Shown here: positions 17,339 through 52,184 of the stretch, piece by piece
How positions within the stretch are numbered: position 1 is the first letter of the stretch
Layout: every line of letters starts with the position of its first letter
NCBI GenBank assembly: GCA_031835245.2
Contig: JAVKOQ020000021.1
Span: forward strand, 124,001 to 188,000
Length of the DNA: 64,000 bases
Source: Balamuthia mandrillaris
Taxonomy: Eukaryota
Direction of reading: 5' to 3'
Notes under the pieces: generated by a model
The model's input: only the letters and a program-made list of their open reading frames with translations
The model's database searches: none
Told to the model about the DNA's origin: nothing
Program-made: the position numbers and the translations under genes

Positions 17339-17528
17339 TGTTAGCAGAGTAAATAGGTATATGGGAAAAGAGTATGTATTGTAGTCTGTAACTGTAGAGA
17401 TAAACATAAAGATAGTGTTGGTATAAAAAGGATTGGTATCGTGGTCCTTATGGTGGTTTCGTGTTATCGTGTTCGTGTTCGTTCCTTCCTTATGTGGGGT
17501 AATGAGATGAGGGGTCTCTCAATTAACA
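17339..17528 (-). repeat. 3' LTR (190 bp)
   Basis: Matches 21599-21788 except for one base (17517 T vs 21777 A). Preceded on the minus strand by purine tract AAGTGGGAG. Confidence 0.97.
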
Positions 17529-20500
17529 CTCCCACTTGATCCCGATTCTCTTGTCTCATTCCGATGTCCGTGATTAGTTTGACGTGTTTGTCTCGCGGTA
17601 GGGGTTTGGTCAGAACATCGGCGGGCATCTCGTCGCTGGCCATGTACTCCAGCTTGATGGTACCCTTCTTGGTTTCTTCCCTGATCTTGTGGTGTCGAAT
17701 GTCGATGTGCTTTGTTCTGGAGTGGTTTCCTGGGTTCTTGGACAGTTCGATACATCCAATGTTGTCCTCGTAGATGATGGTAGGTCCCTCTTGGGTTTCT
17801 CCGATATCGTCTAGCAGTCTTCTTAACCAGATAGCTTCTTTGGTTGCTTCGGTGATACTCATATATTCGGCTTCGGTTGTAGATAGCGCGACGGTCTTCT
17901 GTTTTCTCGATTGCCATGATATTGGTCCTCCGCAGAATTTGAAGACATATCCCGTGGTCGATCTTCTTGAGTCGATGTTGTTGGCGTAGTCGGCGTCGGC
18001 GTATCCAATAAGTTTCGAAGCGTTAGCGTCGTTGGTGTCGAAGGTGATACCGTGGTTTCTTGTTCCGTTGAGGTAGCGAAAGATTCTTTTTAGGGCTTTC
18101 CAGTGTTCCACTTTGGGGTCAGCTGTGAATCTAGCGAGCTCGTTAACGGCAAATGCTATGTCGGGTCTGGTTCCGGTGGCTGCGTACATTAAGCTTCCGA
18201 TTGCGTTTCGGTAAGGAACCTTGGGGTCGAGCTTCCTCGAATTGCTATACTTCGTTAGCTTTACTCCCACTTGCGTTGGGGTGTCGATTGGCCTGCTTTT
18301 GTGCATGTTGTACTTCTCGAGCATATTGCTGATGTAGGTAGGTTGGAGTAGTGTTGTGCGTCGGTTCTGTCGGTCGCGTTTGATCTGGATTCCGAGGATG
18401 AATTGGGCTGGTCCCAAGTCCTTCACGTCGTAGTGTGACTTCAAGTCGTTCTTGAACTTGTTGATGTTCTCGGTTGTTCCCGCGATCAGTAGGTCGTCAA
18501 CGTACAGTCCGATGATGATGATGTTGTTGTTCTCCCATTTGAAGTAGATGCAGCAGTCGGCTGATGCTTTTTCGAAGCCAAGGTCAACGAGAGTGCTATC
18601 AAATTCTCCGTTCCACTCTCTTGCTCCTTGCTTCGTGCCGTATAGTCCCTTTTCTAAGAGGCAGACGTCGTCGGGATGCTCGGGGTCGACGAATCCTACA
18701 GGTTGCTCCATGTAGATGACTTCTTTCATGGTAGCGTTGAGGAATGCTGTGACAATATCCAACTGGTGGAGTTCTAGGTCGTAGAATGTCGCAAAGGCTA
18801 TGATGATTCTAATCGATGTCATTCGAACGACTGGTGCATAGACTTCGAAGTAGTCGACTCCTTTCACTTGAGTGAAGCCTTTGGCAACGAGTCGGGCCTT
18901 GTATCGTTCGATCTCGCCGTGGGCATTCCGCTTAATTCTGAATGTCCATTTGTTCTTGACGATGGTTCTCTCTCTTCCGGGTCGTTTAACGAGTCGCCAA
19001 GTTTTGTTCTTCATCAGAGCTTCGAACTCTTCTGACATCGCCTTAAGCCACTTCTCTCGATCTGGTCCGTTGATTGCTTCTTCGTAGGTTTTTGGTTCCC
19101 CGATGATTGCTGTGATCAGCGCGTAGGTGACCAGGTTGGCACTCTTCTTCTTGGGATCCTCTTCGATGAGTCGCGAGGTTATCGTGATAGCTCGTTTCCC
19201 GTCTGCTCGTGGCTTTTTGAGGAATGAAAATGCAGGGTTGGTTGTCTTCTTATCGATGATGGCTTTGCCGTTTCCGTCGCTGCTGTTGATAGGTTGCTTG
19301 CCTTTGGTTTCGCCTGCGTTCTCATCAGCCTTAGTTTCGCTGTCTTCGCCTTCCTCCTCTTCATCTTCGCTTGAGTCAGAGTCTTCTTTGTCGCTTAGGT
19401 CTGAAGTTTGCATCCTCTTCGGTTGCTCAGGCTTGTTTTTGATGGAGGTGAGTTTTTCTTTCTCATCGTCCATTGTGCTCCGTTCAGGTTGGATGAACTT
19501 TACGTTGCGTGAAAGAGTAATTCTCTTTGTCTTTGGGTTGTAGAGGGTATGTGCCTTAGACGTTTCGCTGGGTCCAAGGTAGATGAGCTCCTTCGCTTTG
19601 GCATCTAGTTTCTTTCGGTCGTTACTGGGTATGAGCGTCCACGCTCTGCTTCCAAAGATTTGGATGTGTCAGAGAAACGGTTTCTTTCCAGTCCAAGCTT
19701 CTTCTGGCGTCATTCCGTTGACTGCGCTGGTGCCAGTGCGGTTCGTGATAGAGTTCGCCATGTTGATGGCTGGCCCCCAATATTTCTCGTCCAGGTCAGC
19801 GTGTTGAAGCATACATCGTGCTTTCTCCATAAGCGTCCTGTTTTTTCTTTCAGCGACTCCGTTCTGCTCCGGTGTATGGGGTGCAGACGTTTGGGTTTGT
19901 ATACCGTTCTTGTGTAGGTGGTTTCTGAAGTTTTTGCTAATGTATTCGCCGCCGTTGTCGCTTCGTAGTGCCTTGATCCTTTTGCCGCTTTGGTTGGTGG
20001 CCAAAGCTTCGAATTCTTGGAATCGTTCCAGTGCACCGTCCTTCGTGGCCAGTCCGTAGACCCAGGTTCGTCTGGTCAGGTCGTCCGTGAAGGTAATGAA
20101 GTATCTGGACCCTCCGATGGAGGTCTGCATTGGTCCGCATATGTCCGTGTGCACTAATTCGAGCTTCTCTGTGGCTCGAGTGGCTGGTTCTGTACTAACG
20201 GGGTTTCGGGATTGCTTGCCCTTGAGGCAGGCAGTACACGGTGCGAGGGTTGCGCCGCTGGGTATATCAATTCCGTTCGTGATCTTCGGTAGTTCCTTCA
20301 GCTTTTCAATGCTGATGTGGCCCAAACGTTTGTGCCATTCGTCCACTGCGGTATTAGCGTGCTCTTTTCGCGGCTCTGGTTTGCCTTGGAGGTGGTATAG
20401 TCCGTCTTCCTCCAATATTCCGATACCGATGACCATTCCGTCCTGTTTGAGTCTGGTGACTCCGCCGGATGAGGAAATGGTTATTCCTCTTCGGTCCAGG

Positions 20501-21534
20501 GTCGTCGTGGATATTAGCGTTTTGTCGAATCCGTCGACGTAGAGTACATCTTGGAAAACACACGTTTCGTGTCCGTACTTTGTCTCTGTTATATAACGTA
20601 GGTTACCAGCTTCCGTGGCGGTTATCTTTTCGCCGTTTGCAAAGTAGACCTTGGTTGGTTTTGTTGGCTTACAGTCCGTTAGCAGGCCTTTGTTACCCGT
20701 CATGTGGCAGGATGCTCCGGAGTCCAAGATTATGTCTCCGGTTGGTGATCCTCCTTTGAGCGACACGTTCATCATTCGCTCTCCTTTCTTTTTCTTACTA
20801 CCGTTCTGACTGCGGCAGTTCTTCGCTATGTGTCCAAATCCATGGCACTTGTAGCACTCGATATCTTTATCTTTCTTCTCTCGGCGACCGTGGTCCTTTC
20901 TGTTTCCACGTTGTCTATGGCGTCCGTACATGATTGATTCGCCTTTGCCGTCGAACTTGCTTTTCTTTCGGGCAGCTTCGAGTCTAAGTTTGTCCAATAT
21001 CTCCTCGTAGGTGCTGCTGTCCTTCAAGGATAGCGTTAGCGAAGAAGAGACGTGCTCCAGGCTTTCTGGTAAGCTGTTTAGGAGGTAGTGGATCTTTTCG
21101 TCCTCAGGTATCGAAGCGTTGCTGAAGATTAGGTCCGCCTCGCCGATCAAGCTGTCGAACTTATCGAGGTGTTTGTCGAGGTCCTGATTGTCCCTCATTT
21201 TCGTAGCAAGTTTGGTGCGGAGCTCGGTCCTTCTAGTGGCGTCGGCCTTGTCGTATTTCTCGCAAAGCCTATCCCACTGTTCTTTCGCGCTTTCAAGGTT
21301 CGTCACCCGTCTCAAGAGTGGTAGGGTGAGACAGCTACAGATCAAACCGCTGGCTATGGCGTCGTTCGCCGGATTAAACTCGATGTCTTCCTGCTTTTTG
21401 CTGCTGCTGGCTCCTATGGTTATCGTTCCGTCGACGTAGCCCCATACGCCCTTGCTCTTCAAGAGCGTTCTCATCTGGCATTTCCAATCCTGGAATCCAT
21501 GTCCGTCGAACGGTTTGATTTTCAACTTGCCCAT
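17464..21534 (-). pseudogene. Copia gag-pol polyprotein with one in-frame TGA at 19669-19671
   Basis: Zn knuckle CYKCHGFGHIAKNC, protease DSGAS, integrase HKRLGH/CTAC and D-D-E (HTDICGP, SDNGGEY, GVAERKN), RT YVDD, RNase H YADADYA. Both ORFs are in one frame (GKKPFL*HIQIFGSRAW). Confidence 0.93.
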
Positions 21535-21585
21535 CGTGCAGTGTGTTTGAAGGAGATTGTGAGTGTAGCGGTTTTAGTTTGACTG

Positions 21586-32515: not shown

Positions 32516-32659
32516 AATGCTGACTCGCTCTACTCCCCTCTTCGCTTTCTCTGCATGCAACAACCTACGGTCTCTCTTTCTCTCTCGCACACGCTCTAAG
32601 CAAATTCGTTTTACTTTGAACAAAAACAAAAAAATAAAGAGAAGAAGAAAAGAAAAAAA

Positions 32660-32767
32660 GCCTGGAGTGGATTTAAACCACCATCAACCCGGATTTGAGG
32701 ATGGATCTTCCTCATGGAGCAGCGTGCGCTGCGTTAGACGGATCGGCTGACTGTTGCCGCGCCAGGC
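32660..32767 (-). ncRNA. Putative Pol III structured small RNA, copy A (~108 nt, tRNA-like fold)
   Basis: Closing stem GCCTGG/CCAGGC, internal hairpins, T7 terminator, ACCCACAA at -64..-71. Homologous to copy B with compensatory changes. Confidence 0.7.
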
Positions 32768-32830
32768 TGATTGGAGAACAAGGAGCCTCAGCCCCTCCTT
32801 GTTTCCCTGCGCGTGCCCTTGGCCACACGA

Positions 32831-32838
32831 TTGTGGGT
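32831..32838 (-). promoter_or_regulatory. DUSE/USE-like upstream element ACCCACAA for RNA copy A
   Basis: Fits the Dictyostelium DUSE consensus WCCCAYAA; same spacing in both copies. Confidence 0.65.
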
Positions 32839-33115
32839 GAGGGCATCAAATAATATTTGACCGACGCGCAATGGTTTGGTATGGCGGTGGTCCTTGTCGA
32901 CACTAATTTTCCCCCGCTAAAAGTAGCAGGGAAGCGCAGGGACCTTTTTTGCTGCCCTTTTTGTCCCTTGCCGTTTCTTTTCGGCCATTTGTAGACAAAA
33001 TTTCTTTTTGTCGACCCAACAAGAGAGGAGAGGAGAGAAGAGAGGGAGAAGATAGGAGAGAGAGCAGAGAGAGCAGAGAGGGAGGAGAAGAAAAAGAATG
33101 GTTGAAAAAAAAAAA

Positions 33116-33237
33116 GCCTGGAGTGGGGAGTTTAACCACCATCAACCCGGATTTCTCATGTTTTAAATAAGAAGCGGCTTGCGCCGCATCCACCTGTGGG
33201 TAAGACGGGTCAGCTAACAGCTTGTGCTGCACCAGGC
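33116..33237 (-). ncRNA. Putative Pol III structured small RNA, copy B (~122 nt, tRNA-like fold)
   Basis: Same closing stem and 3' segment AAATCCGGGTTGATGGTGGTT; GCGGC-GCAA-GCCGC tetraloop hairpin; T11 terminator; TCCCACAA at -64..-71. Confidence 0.7.
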
Positions 33238-33300
33238 TGAACTTGGGAAAACCTCACAAACCCCATTTTCAACCCCATAGGCCCACCATAGGCCGCTCCA

Positions 33301-33308
33301 TTGTGGGA
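33301..33308 (-). promoter_or_regulatory. DUSE/USE-like upstream element TCCCACAA for RNA copy B
   Basis: As for copy A. Extended shared context CTCWCCCACAATSGWGYGGCCWA. Confidence 0.65.
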
Positions 33309-33575
33309 GAGAGGAGATTTGATGCCCACACACAACCAGCTGTGGAGTTCGGTTTGAGGCAGAGATATCTTCTCTCGTGTTTTAAAAAGGTTGTTAGTTT
33401 GTCTCCCGAGCGCACACCGTCACCGGAGATGCCTTCTTCCTCTTTATCTCCTTATTGTTGACACGAGACCACCTCACCTTCGTTTGGTGTTCTTCTTTTG
33501 CTTCTGGCTTGCTTGGCATCCATCTTCTCCTTCTCTCCTCCTTCTCCTTCTTGTTAACCTCCGCTGCATCGAACA

Positions 33576-34260
33576 TCAAAAAGCGGCTAACATGTTGTTG
33601 ATGCCTTCTTCCAAGGTCCCATCGTTGCTGACACGAACCACTCGCACCTGCCCGTCCCCTCCTTTGCGTCGCCACTCCTCCAACAGCCCCTCCAGCTCCT
33701 TCTCCTTCTCCTCGTTTCTCTGCAGGCGTTCCAGCAGCTCGGCCTCGCTTTCGGTGGCCCTGCCTCGCAGCCGCCGGGCCAACGTCTCCGGCTTGGCGGT
33801 GAGGTGGAGCACCAGCATCCTGTACCCACCGGGGAAATAGGTCTCCAGTATCCGCTGCAGGCTCTCTCTGGAAACGCTCAACAACACTTCTTTGCCTACT
33901 GCTTCCATAGGTTCTTCTTCTCCTTCCTCTGCTTCACTATGTTCTTCCTCCTCTGCTCCTTCGTCCAAGGCTCGCTTCACCTCCGCCTCGCGAATGCCGT
34001 AGCGAAGGCCATGCGCCCGCCAGTGAAGGCACGCGCCAAAGGCGCCTTCCTCCAACAGCCGCTGAAAGGCCTCCTCGGAGACGTGCTCGTTGTTCTCTCT
34101 GCCCTCGGCGGCCTCGCGCGTTAGACTCGTTAGAACAACAAAAAGAAAAGTTTTGGTCACAGAAACGAACCAGAGTATCTTTACCAACGCCGCTGGGACC
34201 GATGACCAGACACAAGCGTCCTCTGTTGGGCTCTCCCTTCTTCTTCCTCTGCTGTTGCAT
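33576..34260 (-). CDS. PhnN-like ribose 1,5-bisphosphokinase / guanylate-kinase-fold protein (possibly disrupted)
   Basis: LVIGPSGVGKDTL, LTRE...NEHVSEEAF, LHWRAHGLRYGI, SVSR, LARRLRGRATES, NDGTLEE. Splice phase at 34125-34170 does not fit. Confidence 0.7.
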
Positions 34261-34719
34261 GATGATCTGTTTCGGCGTTTGAATTCGTATTGAAGCAAAA
34301 GTAACGATGGGGGGGGGGGGGTCGAAGATTCCTGTCCTCTGACAGAGGTGCTTATCTTTTGGACACATTTTGCCCTTCTCTGTATAAATTTAGGTTGAAT
34401 GTTAAAACATGGTGGAAAATTTTTTTGGTTGAACAAGCCAAGTCCTCCTCTCCTTGCATGCTTCTTCCTTCTGGGCAAGCCCTCAAGACCCCTCCTTCCG
34501 AGTATATCGTTGCTCTCGCTATAACGGTTTTGTTGTTACCACCAAAACAATTCATAAACGTTCTTGTTGGCAGAGAAAAAACCTTTGTTGTTCTAGGGAC
34601 CCGGTCAAGGTACCTTGGTTTTCTCCGTGTTGGATCCCTTGTTCGTGGGCATCGCGGCCAGTGCTTGGTACGCCTGCGCTCCGCCGTCTCTCCGCGACCA
34701 GTTTTAACAAAGCGGCTGC

Positions 34720-47900: not shown

Positions 47901-50900
47901 CTAGCTTTCGTGCATTTCTCTTTCCATGGCGTCCAGGTCGAAGCAAGCGAACAAAGCCTCAGAGTCTTCTTCGACACTTTCTTCTTCGACAAAAGTGCTT
48001 GCACGTTCTTCTATCACCGGTCTTTCTTGTTCTTCTATGAATTCTTCTTCTTTTTCTTCTTCTGTGAGGCTGGTAAATTGTGGTTGAGGAGGAAGGTTTT
48101 GTGGAATGAAAGTGGAGAAAGAGTTAGAAGAAGAGGAAGATGGGAAAGCTCCAGAGAAAGAAGAAAAGGAAGAAGGAGAAGTGGTAAAGGGAGTTGAAGT
48201 GGTGGTTCCAAAGGGAGCAAAAGTTGGATTTGGGGAATGTAAAGTTGAAGATAGGAAAGGTGAAAAGGAAGAAGAAGAAGAAGAAGAAGAAGAAGAAGAA
48301 GAAGAAAAGGAGAAGGAAGGTAATGATGACGAAGAAGAAGGAACAGCGATAGACGGTTGGATAGTAGAAGAATTCGACTCAAAAGAAACGTCATTGGAAA
48401 ACGGAGAAGTATAAATCGTAGCAATAGAAGACGAAGACGAAGACGAAGACGAAGACGAAGAAGGAGAGGATGTAGAAACTGCTCTTTGGGCTTCAGTGGT
48501 TGTTGCTTCATTATGAGGTGAAGCCTTTGTCGGTCGAGAGAAAGTTATGCCTGCGGAAAAAGGAGAAGACGAAAACGAAGGACCCATTCCACTTTCTTCT
48601 GTTGCTCCTTCTGCTTTTTCTTTTTCTTTTTCTTTGTCTTTTTCGCCTTCATCAACCGGTCGTAACGAACCCAAACGAGTTCCAATCTTCATGCGAACGG
48701 GCAAAGGTACTTCCAATCGCACCGCACCTTCCATGCACCTCCTGAGCACCTCTTGCATCCCGTCCGCTGCTTCCTTCTTTACCTCCAATATCAACTCGTC
48801 ATGAACTTGCATCACGATTCGCGCTCTCTCTTTCCCTTGCTGTGTGTTTGAAATCTCCTTTTCCACTTGAAGCATAGCTCTCTTCACAATGTCGCTCGCG
48901 GTCCCTTGAATGAGCGTGTTGAGGCATTGTCTTTCCGCCTGACTAACACTTGCAGAAGATGATGAAGAAGGCGAAGCAGTAGGATAAGAAGAAGGAACGA
49001 TGGCAGGTAGTAAACGCCAACGGTTCGAGAGAAGAGTGCGCACGTTCCCCGTTTTGCGAGTTTGCTCTTTGGTCTCGTCGATGAAGTGTTTGATTCTGGG
49101 AAAGCTTTGGAGGAAACGATCTAAGAAGCGACGTGCCTGGTCTTCGTTCACTTGAAGCTCGCTGGCGAGAGCGGCTGCTCCTTTGCCGTAGATTATGCCG
49201 TAACAGATTTTCTTGGTGACTTCGCGTTCTTGCTCGGGATTTGAGGACTTCGGCCACCAACGACTAAAAGGAAGATAAAGAGATTGAATAAGCCAAGTAG
49301 AAGAGAAGGGAGAAGGAGAACGAAATGACAAAAAATGGTACCTCGCTAACACAGTAAAGATGTCCTCTCCGCTGCGAAGAAAGCCCAACAAAGCCTCATC
49401 CTTGCAACAATGTGCCAAAATCCTCATTTCCAGCTGAGAATAATCCGCTGCCAAAAACACACAATCCTCTTGGCACCTGAAAGCATCTTTTATGTTAAGG
49501 TTCAAACTTTTCTGTTGAACTTCTTCGTTTCCATTTGCTCCTCCGACGAAGAAAGTCAGGTCCTCTGTTCTGGGTAAGTTTTGCAAATTTGGATCCGCGG
49601 AAGAAAGTCTTCCTGTTGCTGCTTTCGTTTGCGACCATGTACAGCGAACTCGAAACAATCCTTTTCTTCTCAGGAATTCATCTGCTTCATTTGTTGCTCT
49701 TTGCGCAAATGGATCGATGTAACTTGAAAGGAGTTTCGAGATGTGACGATGTTCGAGAATGATGGAAGGAAGAGGATGAAGTTTGGTAAGTTCACGGAGA
49801 CAAGCAGCCCCGGTGGCATAGTCATGCTTGGAATTGTTGTTGTTCTTTGGTTTCGGGAGTTGAAGTTTGTCGTAGAGAATGTGACTCACTTGTTTGGAAG
49901 AACTTAGAAGAAACTTTTCTTCGGCCCATCTTTTTGTTTCGAAGAAGAAATAAGCACGAGAAGGAAGGAAAATAAAGAAGAAGACAACAAACGATAACAT
50001 AATAAATAAACAGAAAGAGGAAAACTCGTACTCTTCAGCTTTTTGCTCCAGAACAGCAGCTCGTTCCATCAACGCAGCTTTATACCGAGTCAAAGCGGAT
50101 ACCTCCAACAAAATGCCACCAAGTTCCATTTGGCAAAGAACATGAGGCATCAGCATTTCTTGCTGCAAGAAAGCAGAGTCCAAGCAGTTTCTTTGCAGCG
50201 ACGAAAACAGAGAAGACATTATTTGATTGACTGTTTTGAGAGCTTTCCAAAAGCTTAACGATGACTTTGTGGTTATATCTGTTGACAAGAGACAAAGAGA
50301 AGTTTGTGAGTTGAAGAGAGTAGGAACATCAAGCAAAAAGATAAAGAAAAGTACAAACCGGAAGAAGAAGCATAACCAGCAAACAAACGTTCATAAGCGT
50401 AGGCCGCTCCAAACTCCTCATCAGCCCCTTCATCCGGATCCAATAACCAAGCTGCAATTTTCGGATCATAAACTGCTGTAGGTTTTGTCATCTTGCCCTC
50501 CGAAGAGGAATAAAGAGCACGCAACATTTGTTGGAGGTCGTAACATACTTTTTGTAGGTGAGAAGAGTTCAAAACGGCCAACAAAAAGGCGGCCATCACC
50601 ATTCTCCTCTCTTTCATCGTCGAAGAGGAAAGTGGTATAAAATAGAGTTGTTGTTTCCACAGTAAGCCAAATCCTTTTATCTTCTTTTCGATGCTCTGCT
50701 TTTTCGACTTCTTGGTTTTGTTGTCAGGAATGAAGTTGGAAGAGCCGTCTTCGAATAGTACTCCTAACGCAACGCATGAAGGAGAGGAGTTGTCCAGAAA
50801 AGGTTGTTCGATGGAAGAAGAAGCAGAAAAAGAAAGGAGAGATTGTTGAAAGTGTTGAAAGGCTGAAATGTTCATCTGAGAGAGATCAATTATTTCGTAT

Positions 50901-51721
50901 GTTTCTTCTTGTTGTTGTTGTTCCTCGTTTTGTTGTTGGAGACTTGAGGCTGTTTTCGGTTTCTTTGATGTATAAGGAGAAGAAGAAGAAGAAGAAGAAG
51001 AAGAAGAAGAAGAACAAGAAGAAGAAGAAGAAGAAGAAGAACAAGAAGCAGAAGCAGAAGAAGGAGGAGAAGGAAGAACGGAAGATGAAGAAGAATGTTG
51101 CGAGTCTGTCTCTAGGGTTTTTCGTTTCTTGAGAGAAGATAGAGAAGATAGAGAAGACGAAGAAGAAGAGGAAGAAGAGGAAGCAGAAGCAGAGGAAAAA
51201 GAAGAAGAAGAAGAAGACATTTGTTGCAGCGAATAGTAAGTGCTGGCATCCGCTTTCAACAGCGGCGTAAAGTCCTGCCGTTGGTCCACAATTCCCGCAG
51301 TCCTTTGCCCATCCGTTGTCGTCATCGAAGCAGAGGAAGAAGAACTTTCTTCGTCATTCTTTTCGTCTTCCTCCTCCGCTTCTTCATTCTCTTCTTCGTC
51401 TTTCTTTTCGTCTTCCTCGTCTGCTTCTTGCAATTTTTGTCGACATTCGAGCTGCCGTTGGAGCTCTTGCTGTTGTTGCTGTCTTCTTCTTCGCGTCAAG
51501 CTGGCGAGCAGCTTCTGTTGCCGCTCCACTGCGGCGGCCAACCTGTTGTTGTGGTCGAGGCGGAAACGGAGCTGCTCGGGCGGAACGCAGACCTGGTCGT
51601 TGAAGTGGTAGAAGTTGTCCCGGCAGAGCTCGTGGAACCTGGAGCATGGCGGAGGCTCCCTGTACCACACGAACATCTTGCCTTGGTTGCCGTTCTCGTC
51701 GGAGGCATCGAAGAAAGCCAT
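47901..51721 (-). CDS. Family A DNA polymerase, Pol nu/theta-like polymerase domain without helicase
   Basis: DPKIAAWLLDP, HPLPSIILEHR, ATGRLSSADPNLQNLP, motif A ADYSQLEMRILAH, motif B REVTKKICYGIIYG, AERQCLNTLIQGTASDIVK, motif C QVHDEL. Confidence 0.88.
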
Positions 51722-52184
51722 TTCTTGTTGTTTGTTTGCTGTTTCCTTCTCTCTTCTGCCTCTCTGTTTATATTTTTTGAATTTTTTCCAAGAAAAATTT
51801 GAAAAAGTATAGTATAAGGAGCACAATAGCTGCAACCCAGTTGCAGGACGAATCAACACTGCGTTGAATTTGTCGACAGCAGTTAAATTGTCGACATACC
51901 AGAAATCCAGCCGAAAATAATCATGGTTTAGATACGATAATCGGACTGTTGTTCCCCAAAACAGGTAAAAACAAGCGAAATATCGATTCGAAAACGCAAT
52001 AAAATCTGCAACGAATCGATATTTGAGGGTTCCATCTGTCCACCCCCACGCAAAAATGGTAAAAACAAACGAAATTTAGGTTTAAAAAAAAGAAAGTCGA
52101 AAAAAAAAGAATAAAGCACAAAATTTTTTTTCATATTTAAACAAATTCTTTTTTTTTTATTTATTTTTTTTGGCTTTAGGTTGC

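What the first reader, a model, noticed from the sequence alone, without database searches (positions are those of the whole stretch)
32650..33330. Tandem pair of unannotated tRNA-like structured RNA genes with their own upstream promoter and Pol III terminator
Seen on the minus strand: A = GCCTGGCGCGGCAACAGTCAGCCGATCCGTCTAACGCAGCGCACGCTGCTCCATGAGGAAGATCCATCCTCAAATCCGGGTTGATGGTGGTTTAAATCCACTCCAGGC then T7; B = GCCTGGTGCAGCACAAGCTGTTAGCTGACCCGTCTTACCCACAGGTGGATGCGGCGCAAGCCGCTTCTTATTTAAAACATGAGAAATCCGGGTTGATGGTGGTTAAACTCCCCACTCCAGGC then T11. Both fold as a cloverleaf: closing stem GCCTGG/CCAGGC; a D-like arm that covaries (CGGC/GCCG vs CAGC/GCTG); a central stem ATCCG or ACCCG pairing with CGGGT; and a T-like arm GTGG...CCAC. 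The anticodon loop is replaced by 2-3 hairpins that differ in sequence but still pair (GCAGC/GCTGC vs GCGGC-GCAA-GCCGC; TGAGGA/TCCTCA vs TCTTAT/ATGAGA). Structure is conserved while sequence and flanks diverge, which argues for selection on RNA structure. They lack canonical tRNA D-loop GG and TTC. I cannot match them to 5S, spliceosomal snRNAs or SRP. Inference: a new small-RNA family, possibly a vault-, Y- or class-I-like RNA or a tRNA mimic.
Basis: partly seen in the sequence, partly recalled or inferred. Interest (0 to 1): 0.9.

Follow-up and report, generated by a model that had tools for sequence, protein, structure and literature searches.

The report
Amoeba tRNA-framed RNAs with swappable middles
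Two neighbouring genes in a Balamuthia amoeba make short RNAs that keep the outer frame of a transfer RNA but carry a different bundle of hairpins after the anticodon position; they match no catalogued RNA family and likely act as protein-binding scaffolds, in the manner of vault RNAs, rather than as decoders.

Summary
A (32768-32659, 110 nt) and B (33238-33115, 124 nt), minus strand, fit tRNA numbering: 7-bp acceptor stem (A1:U72), 4-bp D stem, 5-bp T stem. After a valine-type anticodon stretch (C32-U33-W34-A35-C36) sits a 38- or 47-nt hairpin insert. Each gene has a Dictyostelium-type upstream element (WCCCACAA) at -70..-63 and a T-run. The host is Balamuthia mandrillaris or a close relative. 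RNA-seq reads from three runs cover A and B as discrete blocks, with no depth directly upstream and no splice joint. Of 17 variant sites in the reads, 15 are unpaired and 2 keep their pair. Partly matching reads and one contig point to about three further members with other inserts. No Rfam family or ARAGORN tRNA matches. D-loop GG and T-loop positions 55/56 are lost, 31:39 is mismatched and base 73 is U, so these are unlikely to be decoding tRNAs. Best reading: a new tRNA-derived Pol III RNA family with a constant frame and variable centre, working like vault/Y-type RNAs (0.38; no partner tested). A link to Dictyostelium Class I RNAs is possible but weak.

The parts
33301..33308 (-). DUSE-like upstream element TCCCACAA, -70..-63 from the start of B
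   Evidence: DUSE ~63 bp upstream per PMC3188802 passages, whose printed consensus differs at position 6
33115..33238 (-). RNA gene B, 124 nt, tRNA-shaped frame with 47-nt insert
   Evidence: sequence, fold, numbering, RNA-seq block 33120-33243
33198..33205 (-). B positions 31-38 (tRNA numbering), Val-type W34-A35-C36 stretch; position 37 reads A in 64 of 72 reads
33151..33197 (-). B variable insert: GCAA-capped 5-bp hairpin, 6-bp hairpin, one weak extra hairpin
33105..33115 (-). T11 run, Pol III terminator-like (first T pairs with A1)
32831..32838 (-). DUSE-like upstream element ACCCACAA, -70..-63 from the start of A
   Evidence: same 470-nt spacing as the two 5' ends (D4 and D9)
32659..32768 (-). 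RNA gene A, 110 nt, tRNA-shaped frame with 38-nt insert
   Evidence: RNA-seq block 32655-32778
32731..32738 (-). A positions 31-38, anticodon-like stretch with A34-A35-C36; positions 31-36 predicted unpaired (0.82-0.97), 37-38 paired in the first insert hairpin
32693..32730 (-). A variable insert: 5-bp and 6-bp hairpins
32671..32677 (-). A T-loop TTTAAAT; across alleles and paralogues T54, R57 and A58 stay while 55, 56 and 59 vary
32653..32659 (-). T7 run, Pol III terminator-like

Best explanation
A and B are transcribed, unspliced 110-124-nt RNAs of a likely tRNA-Val-derived, likely Pol III multigene family, whose constant tRNA-shaped frame is predicted to dock on a housekeeping RNA-binding protein (most likely the TROVE protein TEP1) while the paralogue-specific insert would recruit other partners, as vault RNAs do. 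Shown: discrete transcription, no splice joint, tRNA-register frame, DUSE-like element at -70..-63, T-run, variants that avoid stems, lost elbow residues. Inferred from indirect data: about three further paralogues with different inserts. Inferred: SNAPc/Pol III transcription from the upstream element (which would free the internal A/B boxes to decay), descent from tRNA-Val, no role in decoding. Predicted and untested: TEP1/vault or La binding, and any effector function. My confidence that this is a real non-decoding tRNA-derived RNA family is about 0.85. The number given here is for the whole mechanism, including the vault-type role.
For: Expression: depth about 32/42/18 over A and 31/24/16 over B in runs X3/X4/X5, zero at 32779-32840 and 33244-33400. 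No joint skipping the insert at 90% or 80% likeness. Structure under selection: 15 of 17 variant sites unpaired, 2 kept, 0 broken against 98 of 222 positions unpaired (p 1e-4; 0.003 if the B loop cluster counts once; two sites in B's unresolved hairpin left out). Promoter at identical register. Family: loose ends at 32694 (5 reads, X3), 32692 (7 reads, X4) and one X1 contig at 33150 continue the shared 3' core into unrelated inserts, with matching minority T-arm variants including a G49-U65 to G-C change. Vault RNAs are Pol III, multi-copy, with tRNA-type A/B boxes, an acceptor-like terminal stem and a member-specific central domain (PMC7904556, 10.64898/2026.10.07.757187 passages). MVP is present in Amoebozoa including Acanthamoeba, Dictyostelium vaults carry a TEP1 orthologue, and structural homology was suggested as the way to find vtRNA outside metazoa.
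Against: No hit to the Rfam Vault or Y models even on 126-141-nt searches at E<=10; the only Y-type hit is Deinococcus_Y_RNA at 19.7 bits against a gathering score of 80. The B-box-like stretch lacks the TC of the tRNA/vault consensus (consensus recalled). A cloverleaf is not the described vault fold (recalled). TEP1, MVP, Ro60 and La in this genome were not checked because no genome is held. A kept anticodon-like stretch is not explained by a vault role. All three RNA runs are one study, with both mate directions on both strands, so the strand is inferred. Most reads are 90-95% alike, so they may come from other alleles or paralogues: only 6 reads are 99+% alike, and 2-4 reads per run lack B's variant letters.
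Confidence: 0.38

Rival explanations
1. The working part is the single-stranded Y-C-U-W-A-C stretch right after the central stem. The RNAs present it to a specific protein (an RRM protein, or valyl-tRNA synthetase as a decoy) and are the discosean counterpart, perhaps the ancestor, of Dictyostelium Class I RNAs.
For: Same promoter type and distance, T-run, multigene family, stem followed directly by a conserved motif and then a variable region. [quoted passage not shown] The motif's positions 31-36 are unpaired in A.
Against: Only 2 of 5 (A) or 3 of 5 (B) invariant Class I motif positions match. Length 110-124 vs about 60 nt, GC 52-55% vs 32-41%, no CUGU 3' end, no Rfam Class I hit. Class I was not found outside Dictyostelia. 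A 5-6-nt resemblance is within chance. In the window's B allele the motif is predicted to be largely paired.
Confidence: 0.22
2. A ribosome- or SRP-associated tRNA mimic that pauses translation, like trypanosome sRNA-76/sRNA-85.
For: A precedent exists for a tRNA-like RNA within a protist SRP (PMC2800229, PMC9283944 passages). The 12-bp acceptor/T helix is intact.
Against: Those RNAs are tRNA-sized single species that replace a missing Alu function. Here the elbow residues are gone and inserts differ among paralogues. Pairing with this organism's 7SL could not be tested.
Confidence: 0.1
3. Intron-containing pre-tRNA-Val genes; the spliced tRNA is missed by standard RNA-seq.
For: Exact tRNA register; both anticodon positions read Val (AAC, TAC). 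ARAGORN at 80% threshold calls A tRNA-Val(aac), possible pseudogene. Mature modified tRNAs are poorly captured by such libraries (own knowledge).
Against: No splice joint in 212 or 202 laid RNA reads. At that threshold ARAGORN makes 109 calls in the window and calls B Leu. The spliced form would have a U31-C39 mismatch, no G18G19, variable 55/56 and U73. The base that should pair with C32 is A. No A34>G or A58 misreading appears in the variant tables. An external promoter is atypical of tRNA genes other than tRNA-Sec (these criteria recalled).
Confidence: 0.08
4. Functionless tRNA-derived pseudogenes or SINE-like copies with residual transcription.
For: Degenerate A/B boxes. Low read counts (36-90 laid reads per 12.9 million). 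One related copy sits in an X1 contig that runs past its T-run. A dispersed repeat lies just upstream of A.
Against: Variants avoid stems. External element kept at fixed distance in both. No A-tail on the sense strand and no target-site duplication seen in the flanks.
Confidence: 0.1

Closest known systems
Vault RNA (Rfam Vault; T. brucei vtRNA/TBsRNA-10)
   Same: Pol III-type small RNA of similar size, terminal acceptor-like stem plus U-tail, tRNA-derived A/B-box-like stretches at the two ends, several paralogues differing in the centre
   Different: Full D and T arms in tRNA register, a retained anticodon stretch, degenerate B box, no Rfam match; TEP1/vault binding untested
Dictyostelium Class I RNAs
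   Same: DUSE about 60 nt upstream, T-run, multigene, stem followed by a YCUWAC-like motif and a variable region
   Different: Twice as long, higher GC, tRNA frame around the stem, only 2-3 of 5 invariant motif bases, no CUGU end
Bacterial YrlA Y RNA
   Same: tRNA-like module joined to another domain at the anticodon stem, no anticodon loop
   Different: YrlA is circularly permuted with a closed acceptor stem and an intact GG/T-loop elbow; here the order is unpermuted, the acceptor end is free and the elbow residues are lost
tRNA-Val with an intron
   Same: Register of all four arms; W34-A35-C36 and C38
   Different: No splicing seen, 31:39 mismatch, no G18G19 or psi55-C56, U73, external promoter
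Trypanosome sRNA-76/sRNA-85
   Same: Non-decoding tRNA-like RNA in a protist
   Different: Single, tRNA-sized, bound to 7SL; no variable insert family described in the passages read
tmRNA (recalled)
   Same: tRNA-like ends enclosing an internal domain at the anticodon arm
   Different: No tag reading frame or pseudoknots, nuclear gene, no encoded CCA; ARAGORN found no tmRNA

Membership tests
Vault RNA | Match to the Rfam Vault model | tested here: not met
   no hit at E<=10; sequence homology is slim even within metazoa
Vault RNA | Terminal stem plus U-tail, internal A/B-box-like sequences, variable centre | tested here: inconclusive
   stem, tail and variable centre present; boxes degenerate
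Vault RNA | Binds TEP1 / co-purifies with vault particles | not testable with these tools
   needs pull-down; host genome not held
Y RNA (YrlA type) | Circularly permuted tRNA module with closed acceptor stem and GG/T-loop elbow | tested here: not met
   unpermuted order, no D-loop GG
Y RNA (YrlA type) | Match to Rfam Y RNA models | tested here: not met
   best is Deinococcus_Y_RNA 19.7 bits vs gathering 80, B only
Y RNA (YrlA type) | Ro60 binding | not testable with these tools
   needs pull-down
Dictyostelium Class I RNA | DUSE about 60 nt upstream | tested here: met
   WCCCACAA at -70..-63 in both; one base off the consensus printed in PMC3188802
Dictyostelium Class I RNA | 11-nt motif with T3, C6, C9, A10, A11 next to the 5' strand of the closing stem | tested here: not met
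   2 of 5 (A), 3 of 5 (B), and next to an internal stem
Dictyostelium Class I RNA | About 60 nt, GC 32-41%, CUGU 3' end | tested here: not met
   110/124 nt, GC 0.55/0.52, ends CCAGGCU
Cytosolic tRNA (Val) | ARAGORN or Rfam tRNA call at default threshold | tested here: not met
   (introns allowed, thresholds 100 and 90: none)
Cytosolic tRNA (Val) | G18G19, psi55-C56, five-pair anticodon stem, A73 (criteria recalled) | tested here: not met
   numbering table; T-loop variants
Cytosolic tRNA (Val) | Insert removed by splicing | tested here: inconclusive
   no joint, but these libraries capture mature tRNA poorly
Cytosolic tRNA (Val) | tRNAscan-SE score | not testable with these tools
   program not available
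tRNA-derived SINE | Sense-strand A-tail, target-site duplications, internal promoter only | tested here: not met
   T-run, no duplication seen, external element in both
tRNA-derived SINE | High copy number | not testable with these tools
   2 copies in 64 kb; genome not held

The most novel reading that the evidence does not exclude
These are a living intermediate between tRNA and the orphan Pol III small RNAs. A tRNA-Val gene moved under an snRNA-type upstream promoter, lost its elbow and turned the anticodon loop into an exchangeable domain. The family is the amoebozoan vault/TROVE RNA, and the Dictyostelium Class I RNAs are its trimmed descendants, their conserved 11-nt motif being a fossil valine anticodon loop.
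Probability: 0.12. Interest if true: 0.9.

Novelty: new variant of a known kind. Interest (0 to 1): 0.72.

Why it matters
Amoebozoa have vault proteins, but I found no amoebozoan vault RNA in the passages I read, and Class I RNAs were thought to be confined to dictyostelids, as was their promoter geometry. This locus gives concrete, expressed candidates for both questions and shows a DUSE-like element at the same distance in a discosean amoeba. That makes the motif a search key for all snRNA-type genes in Balamuthia and Acanthamoeba. It is also a clear case of a tRNA gene apparently being reused as a non-decoding scaffold with a swappable centre.

Tried and rejected
Rfam: whole window at gathering, 0 hits; E<=10 searches gave only chance-level hits (mir, sR55, Antizyme_FSE, Deinococcus_Y_RNA). 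ARAGORN default, 0 genes; lowered thresholds are uninformative (109 calls at 80% in 64 kb). Homologue searches outside the organism failed. Metagenome pattern scan: 33 loci, none with a T-run or DUSE. Prokaryote genomes: 0. Viral contigs: 0, 91 and 49 loci. Model R1 (two sequences) on all 173 loci gave at best 21.2 bits (L004, chosen by the pattern itself) against 131-155 for A and B. Phage blastn gave 2 chance matches. No third copy in the window. No eukaryote genome collection was searchable, so absence from Acanthamoeba or Dictyostelium is untested. The run search listed no holder on record as RNA; the evidence comes from laying raw reads. X1 and X2 contigs do not cover A or B, which proves nothing. 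My first variant count mis-indexed B's extra hairpin (16 unpaired, 3 kept, 1 broken of 20); one search leaves that hairpin and its two sites out, and one of them breaks a pair of the predicted hairpin. Considered and rejected from sequence, criteria recalled: telomerase RNA (no 1.5-repeat template; the CUWAC stretch differs among alleles), C/D and H/ACA snoRNA, Sm snRNA, 7SK, tRNA-Sec (wrong stem lengths, no UCA). Earlier scan findings: none returned. Ten literature searches listed no paper describing such an RNA in Balamuthia or Acanthamoeba; the library is open-access only. Kolev 2019 on trypanosome vault RNA could not be read.

Full report
Observation. Including the A before GCCTGG, A spans 32768-32659 (110 nt) and B 33238-33115 (124 nt). 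They share an exact 21-nt block and nothing else in the window resembles them. Both fold better than shuffles (z -2.68 and -2.97). They lie in about 1.06 kb between a PhnN-like kinase gene (minus strand, TIGR02322 E 1.7e-21, below cutoff) and the 3' end of a convergent E1-type gene (SAE1/Aos1 is my inference). A window protein matches a Balamuthia mandrillaris protein at 316 of 336 ungapped positions, so the host is that species or a close relative.

Anatomy. Laid on tRNA numbering, both have a 7-bp acceptor stem with A1:U72, two linker bases, a 4-bp D stem, A26, a 27-30:40-43 stem with a U31-C39 mismatch, a 5-nt variable loop and a 5-bp T stem. Positions 32-38 read CTAACGC (A) and CTTACCC (B), so 34-36 are AAC and TAC, both valine anticodons, followed by inserts of 38 and 47 nt made of hairpins. 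The D loops have no GG and the T loops lack TC at 55-56. Of 25 core pairs all form in both genes; two change on both sides (D stem 11:24 and the GCAA-type hairpin), which is not significant for two sequences (129 of 500 shuffles). The D stem is the least supported arm (pair probability about 0.4 in A, 0.01 in the window's B).

Promoter. WCCCACAA lies at -70..-63 in both genes, with the same 470-nt offset as the 5' ends. In Dictyostelium, DUSE ([AT]CCCA[AT]AA) sits about 63 bp upstream of snRNA and Class I/II genes (PMC3188802, passages) and is found before all expressed Class I genes (PMC7919456, passages and sections 8 and 14). Ours has C at position 6. The widened pattern occurs 13 times in 128 kb of both strands. 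The two copies are not independent, since they probably arose by duplication. Pol III and SNAPc-type transcription is inferred.

Expression. Three raw RNA-seq runs of one study, labelled as the same species as the best holder of the stretch (3-5% of each read), give 86, 90 and 36 laid reads. Depth forms two blocks over A and B and is zero directly upstream of each and between B and the PhnN-like gene, so this is not mRNA read-through. Both mate directions occur on both strands, so the strand is inferred from DUSE and the T-run. Most reads are 90-95% alike to the window, in line with the roughly 6% protein difference seen. A minority carry the window's own letters (A: 4 of 32 in X3, 0 of about 42 in X4, 2 of 18-20 in X5; B: 2, 2 and 4 reads). 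I cannot tell alleles from near-identical paralogues. No joint skips either insert at 90% or 80% likeness. No A34>G or A58 misreading is listed. The 3' ends pile up near 32662, but random priming does not map ends.

Selection and family. Of 17 variant sites (two sites in B's unresolved extra hairpin left out), 15 are unpaired and 2 keep their pair (G-C to G-U; G-U to G-C), none break (p 1e-4, or 0.003 counting B's loop cluster once). The majority B form has A37 (64 of 72 reads), giving C32-U33-U34-A35-C36-A37-C38, the usual tRNA-Val loop (recalled), and appears to have a 7-nt T loop (loose ends at 33127 plus the 33130 variant). T loops seen or inferred are TTTAAAT, TTAAAAT, TCAGAAT and TGAAACT: T54, R57 and A58 stay while 55 and 56, which contact the D-loop GG in tRNA, vary. 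Loose ends at 32694 (X3, 5 reads), 32692 (X4, 7 reads, agreement 0.76) and one X1 contig at 33150 continue the shared CCGGG...CCAGGC core into three unrelated inserts. I read these as further paralogues. Their 5' halves were not seen, and linking the minority T-loop letters to them rests on matching read counts.

What it is not. No Rfam family reaches its threshold and none of tRNA, Vault, metazoan Y, YrlA, Class I, SRP or snRNA matches A or B at E<=10. ARAGORN finds nothing at default or at 90% with introns allowed. A spliced product would lack the elbow, have a 4-bp anticodon stem and U73, so a decoding tRNA is unlikely (0.08). YrlA is circularly permuted with an intact elbow (10.1101/312249, passages). 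Class I RNAs are about 60 nt with a different motif and 3' end. No homologue turned up in metagenome, prokaryote, viral or phage collections; eukaryote genomes could not be searched.

How it most likely works. A constant 12-bp acceptor/T helix with a U-tail, plus a centre that differs among paralogues, is the layout of a scaffold or decoy RNA. Vault RNAs share that logic: Pol III, A/B boxes, several paralogues, member-specific central domain (PMC7904556, passages) and an acceptor-like terminal stem (10.64898/2026.10.07.757187, abstract and passages). Amoebozoa including Acanthamoeba have MVP (PMC3762200, passages), Dictyostelium vaults carry a TEP1 orthologue (PMC13100048, passages), and a protist vault RNA exists in trypanosomes (PMC12547018 and PMC9283944, passages; the original paper was not available). 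I put a vault-type role at 0.38. It rests on analogy, not on a test, and does not explain the kept anticodon-like stretch. That stretch favours the second reading (0.22): a motif presented after a stem, as in Class I RNAs, whose CCTTACAGCCAA motif shares CTTACA with the majority B form. The match is short and may be chance. SRP/ribosome mimicry (PMC2800229, passages; 0.10) and functionless copies (0.10) are less likely, and about 0.12 is left for roles not listed.

Novelty. Ten searches of the open-access library listed no description of this RNA. A Balamuthia genome preprint annotated 681 tRNAs and 100 ncRNAs with tRNAscan-SE and Infernal (10.1101/2025.02.25.640156, passages); its supplements were not visible and might list these loci as pseudo-tRNAs. 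Passages of PMC5041481 and 10.1101/2023.10.19.562841 added nothing on it. I rate it a new family within a known kind (tRNA-derived, non-decoding Pol III RNAs) with an architecture I did not find described. Interest 0.72.

Noticed in passing
window 32852-32981 (inverted arms 32804-32817 / 32929-32942): Sequence just upstream of A recurs elsewhere: two X1 contigs (depth 153 and 10.5) and X3/X4 reads match it with several differences. The 14-nt inverted arms bracket A's DUSE-like element. Possibly a small dispersed element or the upstream region of other family members.
   Followed up: partly
window 32777-32803: Perfect 9-bp inverted repeat directly upstream of A's start; B has a different 9-bp one at 33100-33108 / 33266-33274 that encloses the gene.
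   Followed up: no
L004 906-1034 (+): In a prokaryote-like tRNA array, an uncalled tRNA-shaped gene has a canonical T arm, a 3' half close to A/B, a 31:39 mismatch and about 55-60 extra nt in the anticodon loop. Picked up by my pattern, so the likeness is partly built in; it may be a tRNA with an unusual intron.
   Followed up: partly
window 33576-34262 (-): PhnN-like ribose 1,5-bisphosphokinase gene of bacterial type, apparently with an intron; possible lateral transfer.
   Followed up: partly
window 17464-21573 (-): Copia-type LTR retrotransposon (gag, integrase, RT) whose frame is interrupted by one in-frame stop between the integrase and RT parts.
   Followed up: no
window 21976 (-): A third WCCCACAAT, about 400 nt upstream of the retrotransposon's first ORF; model R1 finds no family member there.
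   Followed up: no
window 47901-52075 (-): Family A DNA polymerase gene with only 30-39% identity to its nearest relatives, mostly bacterial Pol I.
   Followed up: no
window 32738: Position 31 of A reads C instead of U in 31 of 90 reads across three runs; allele, paralogue or modification not resolved.
   Followed up: no
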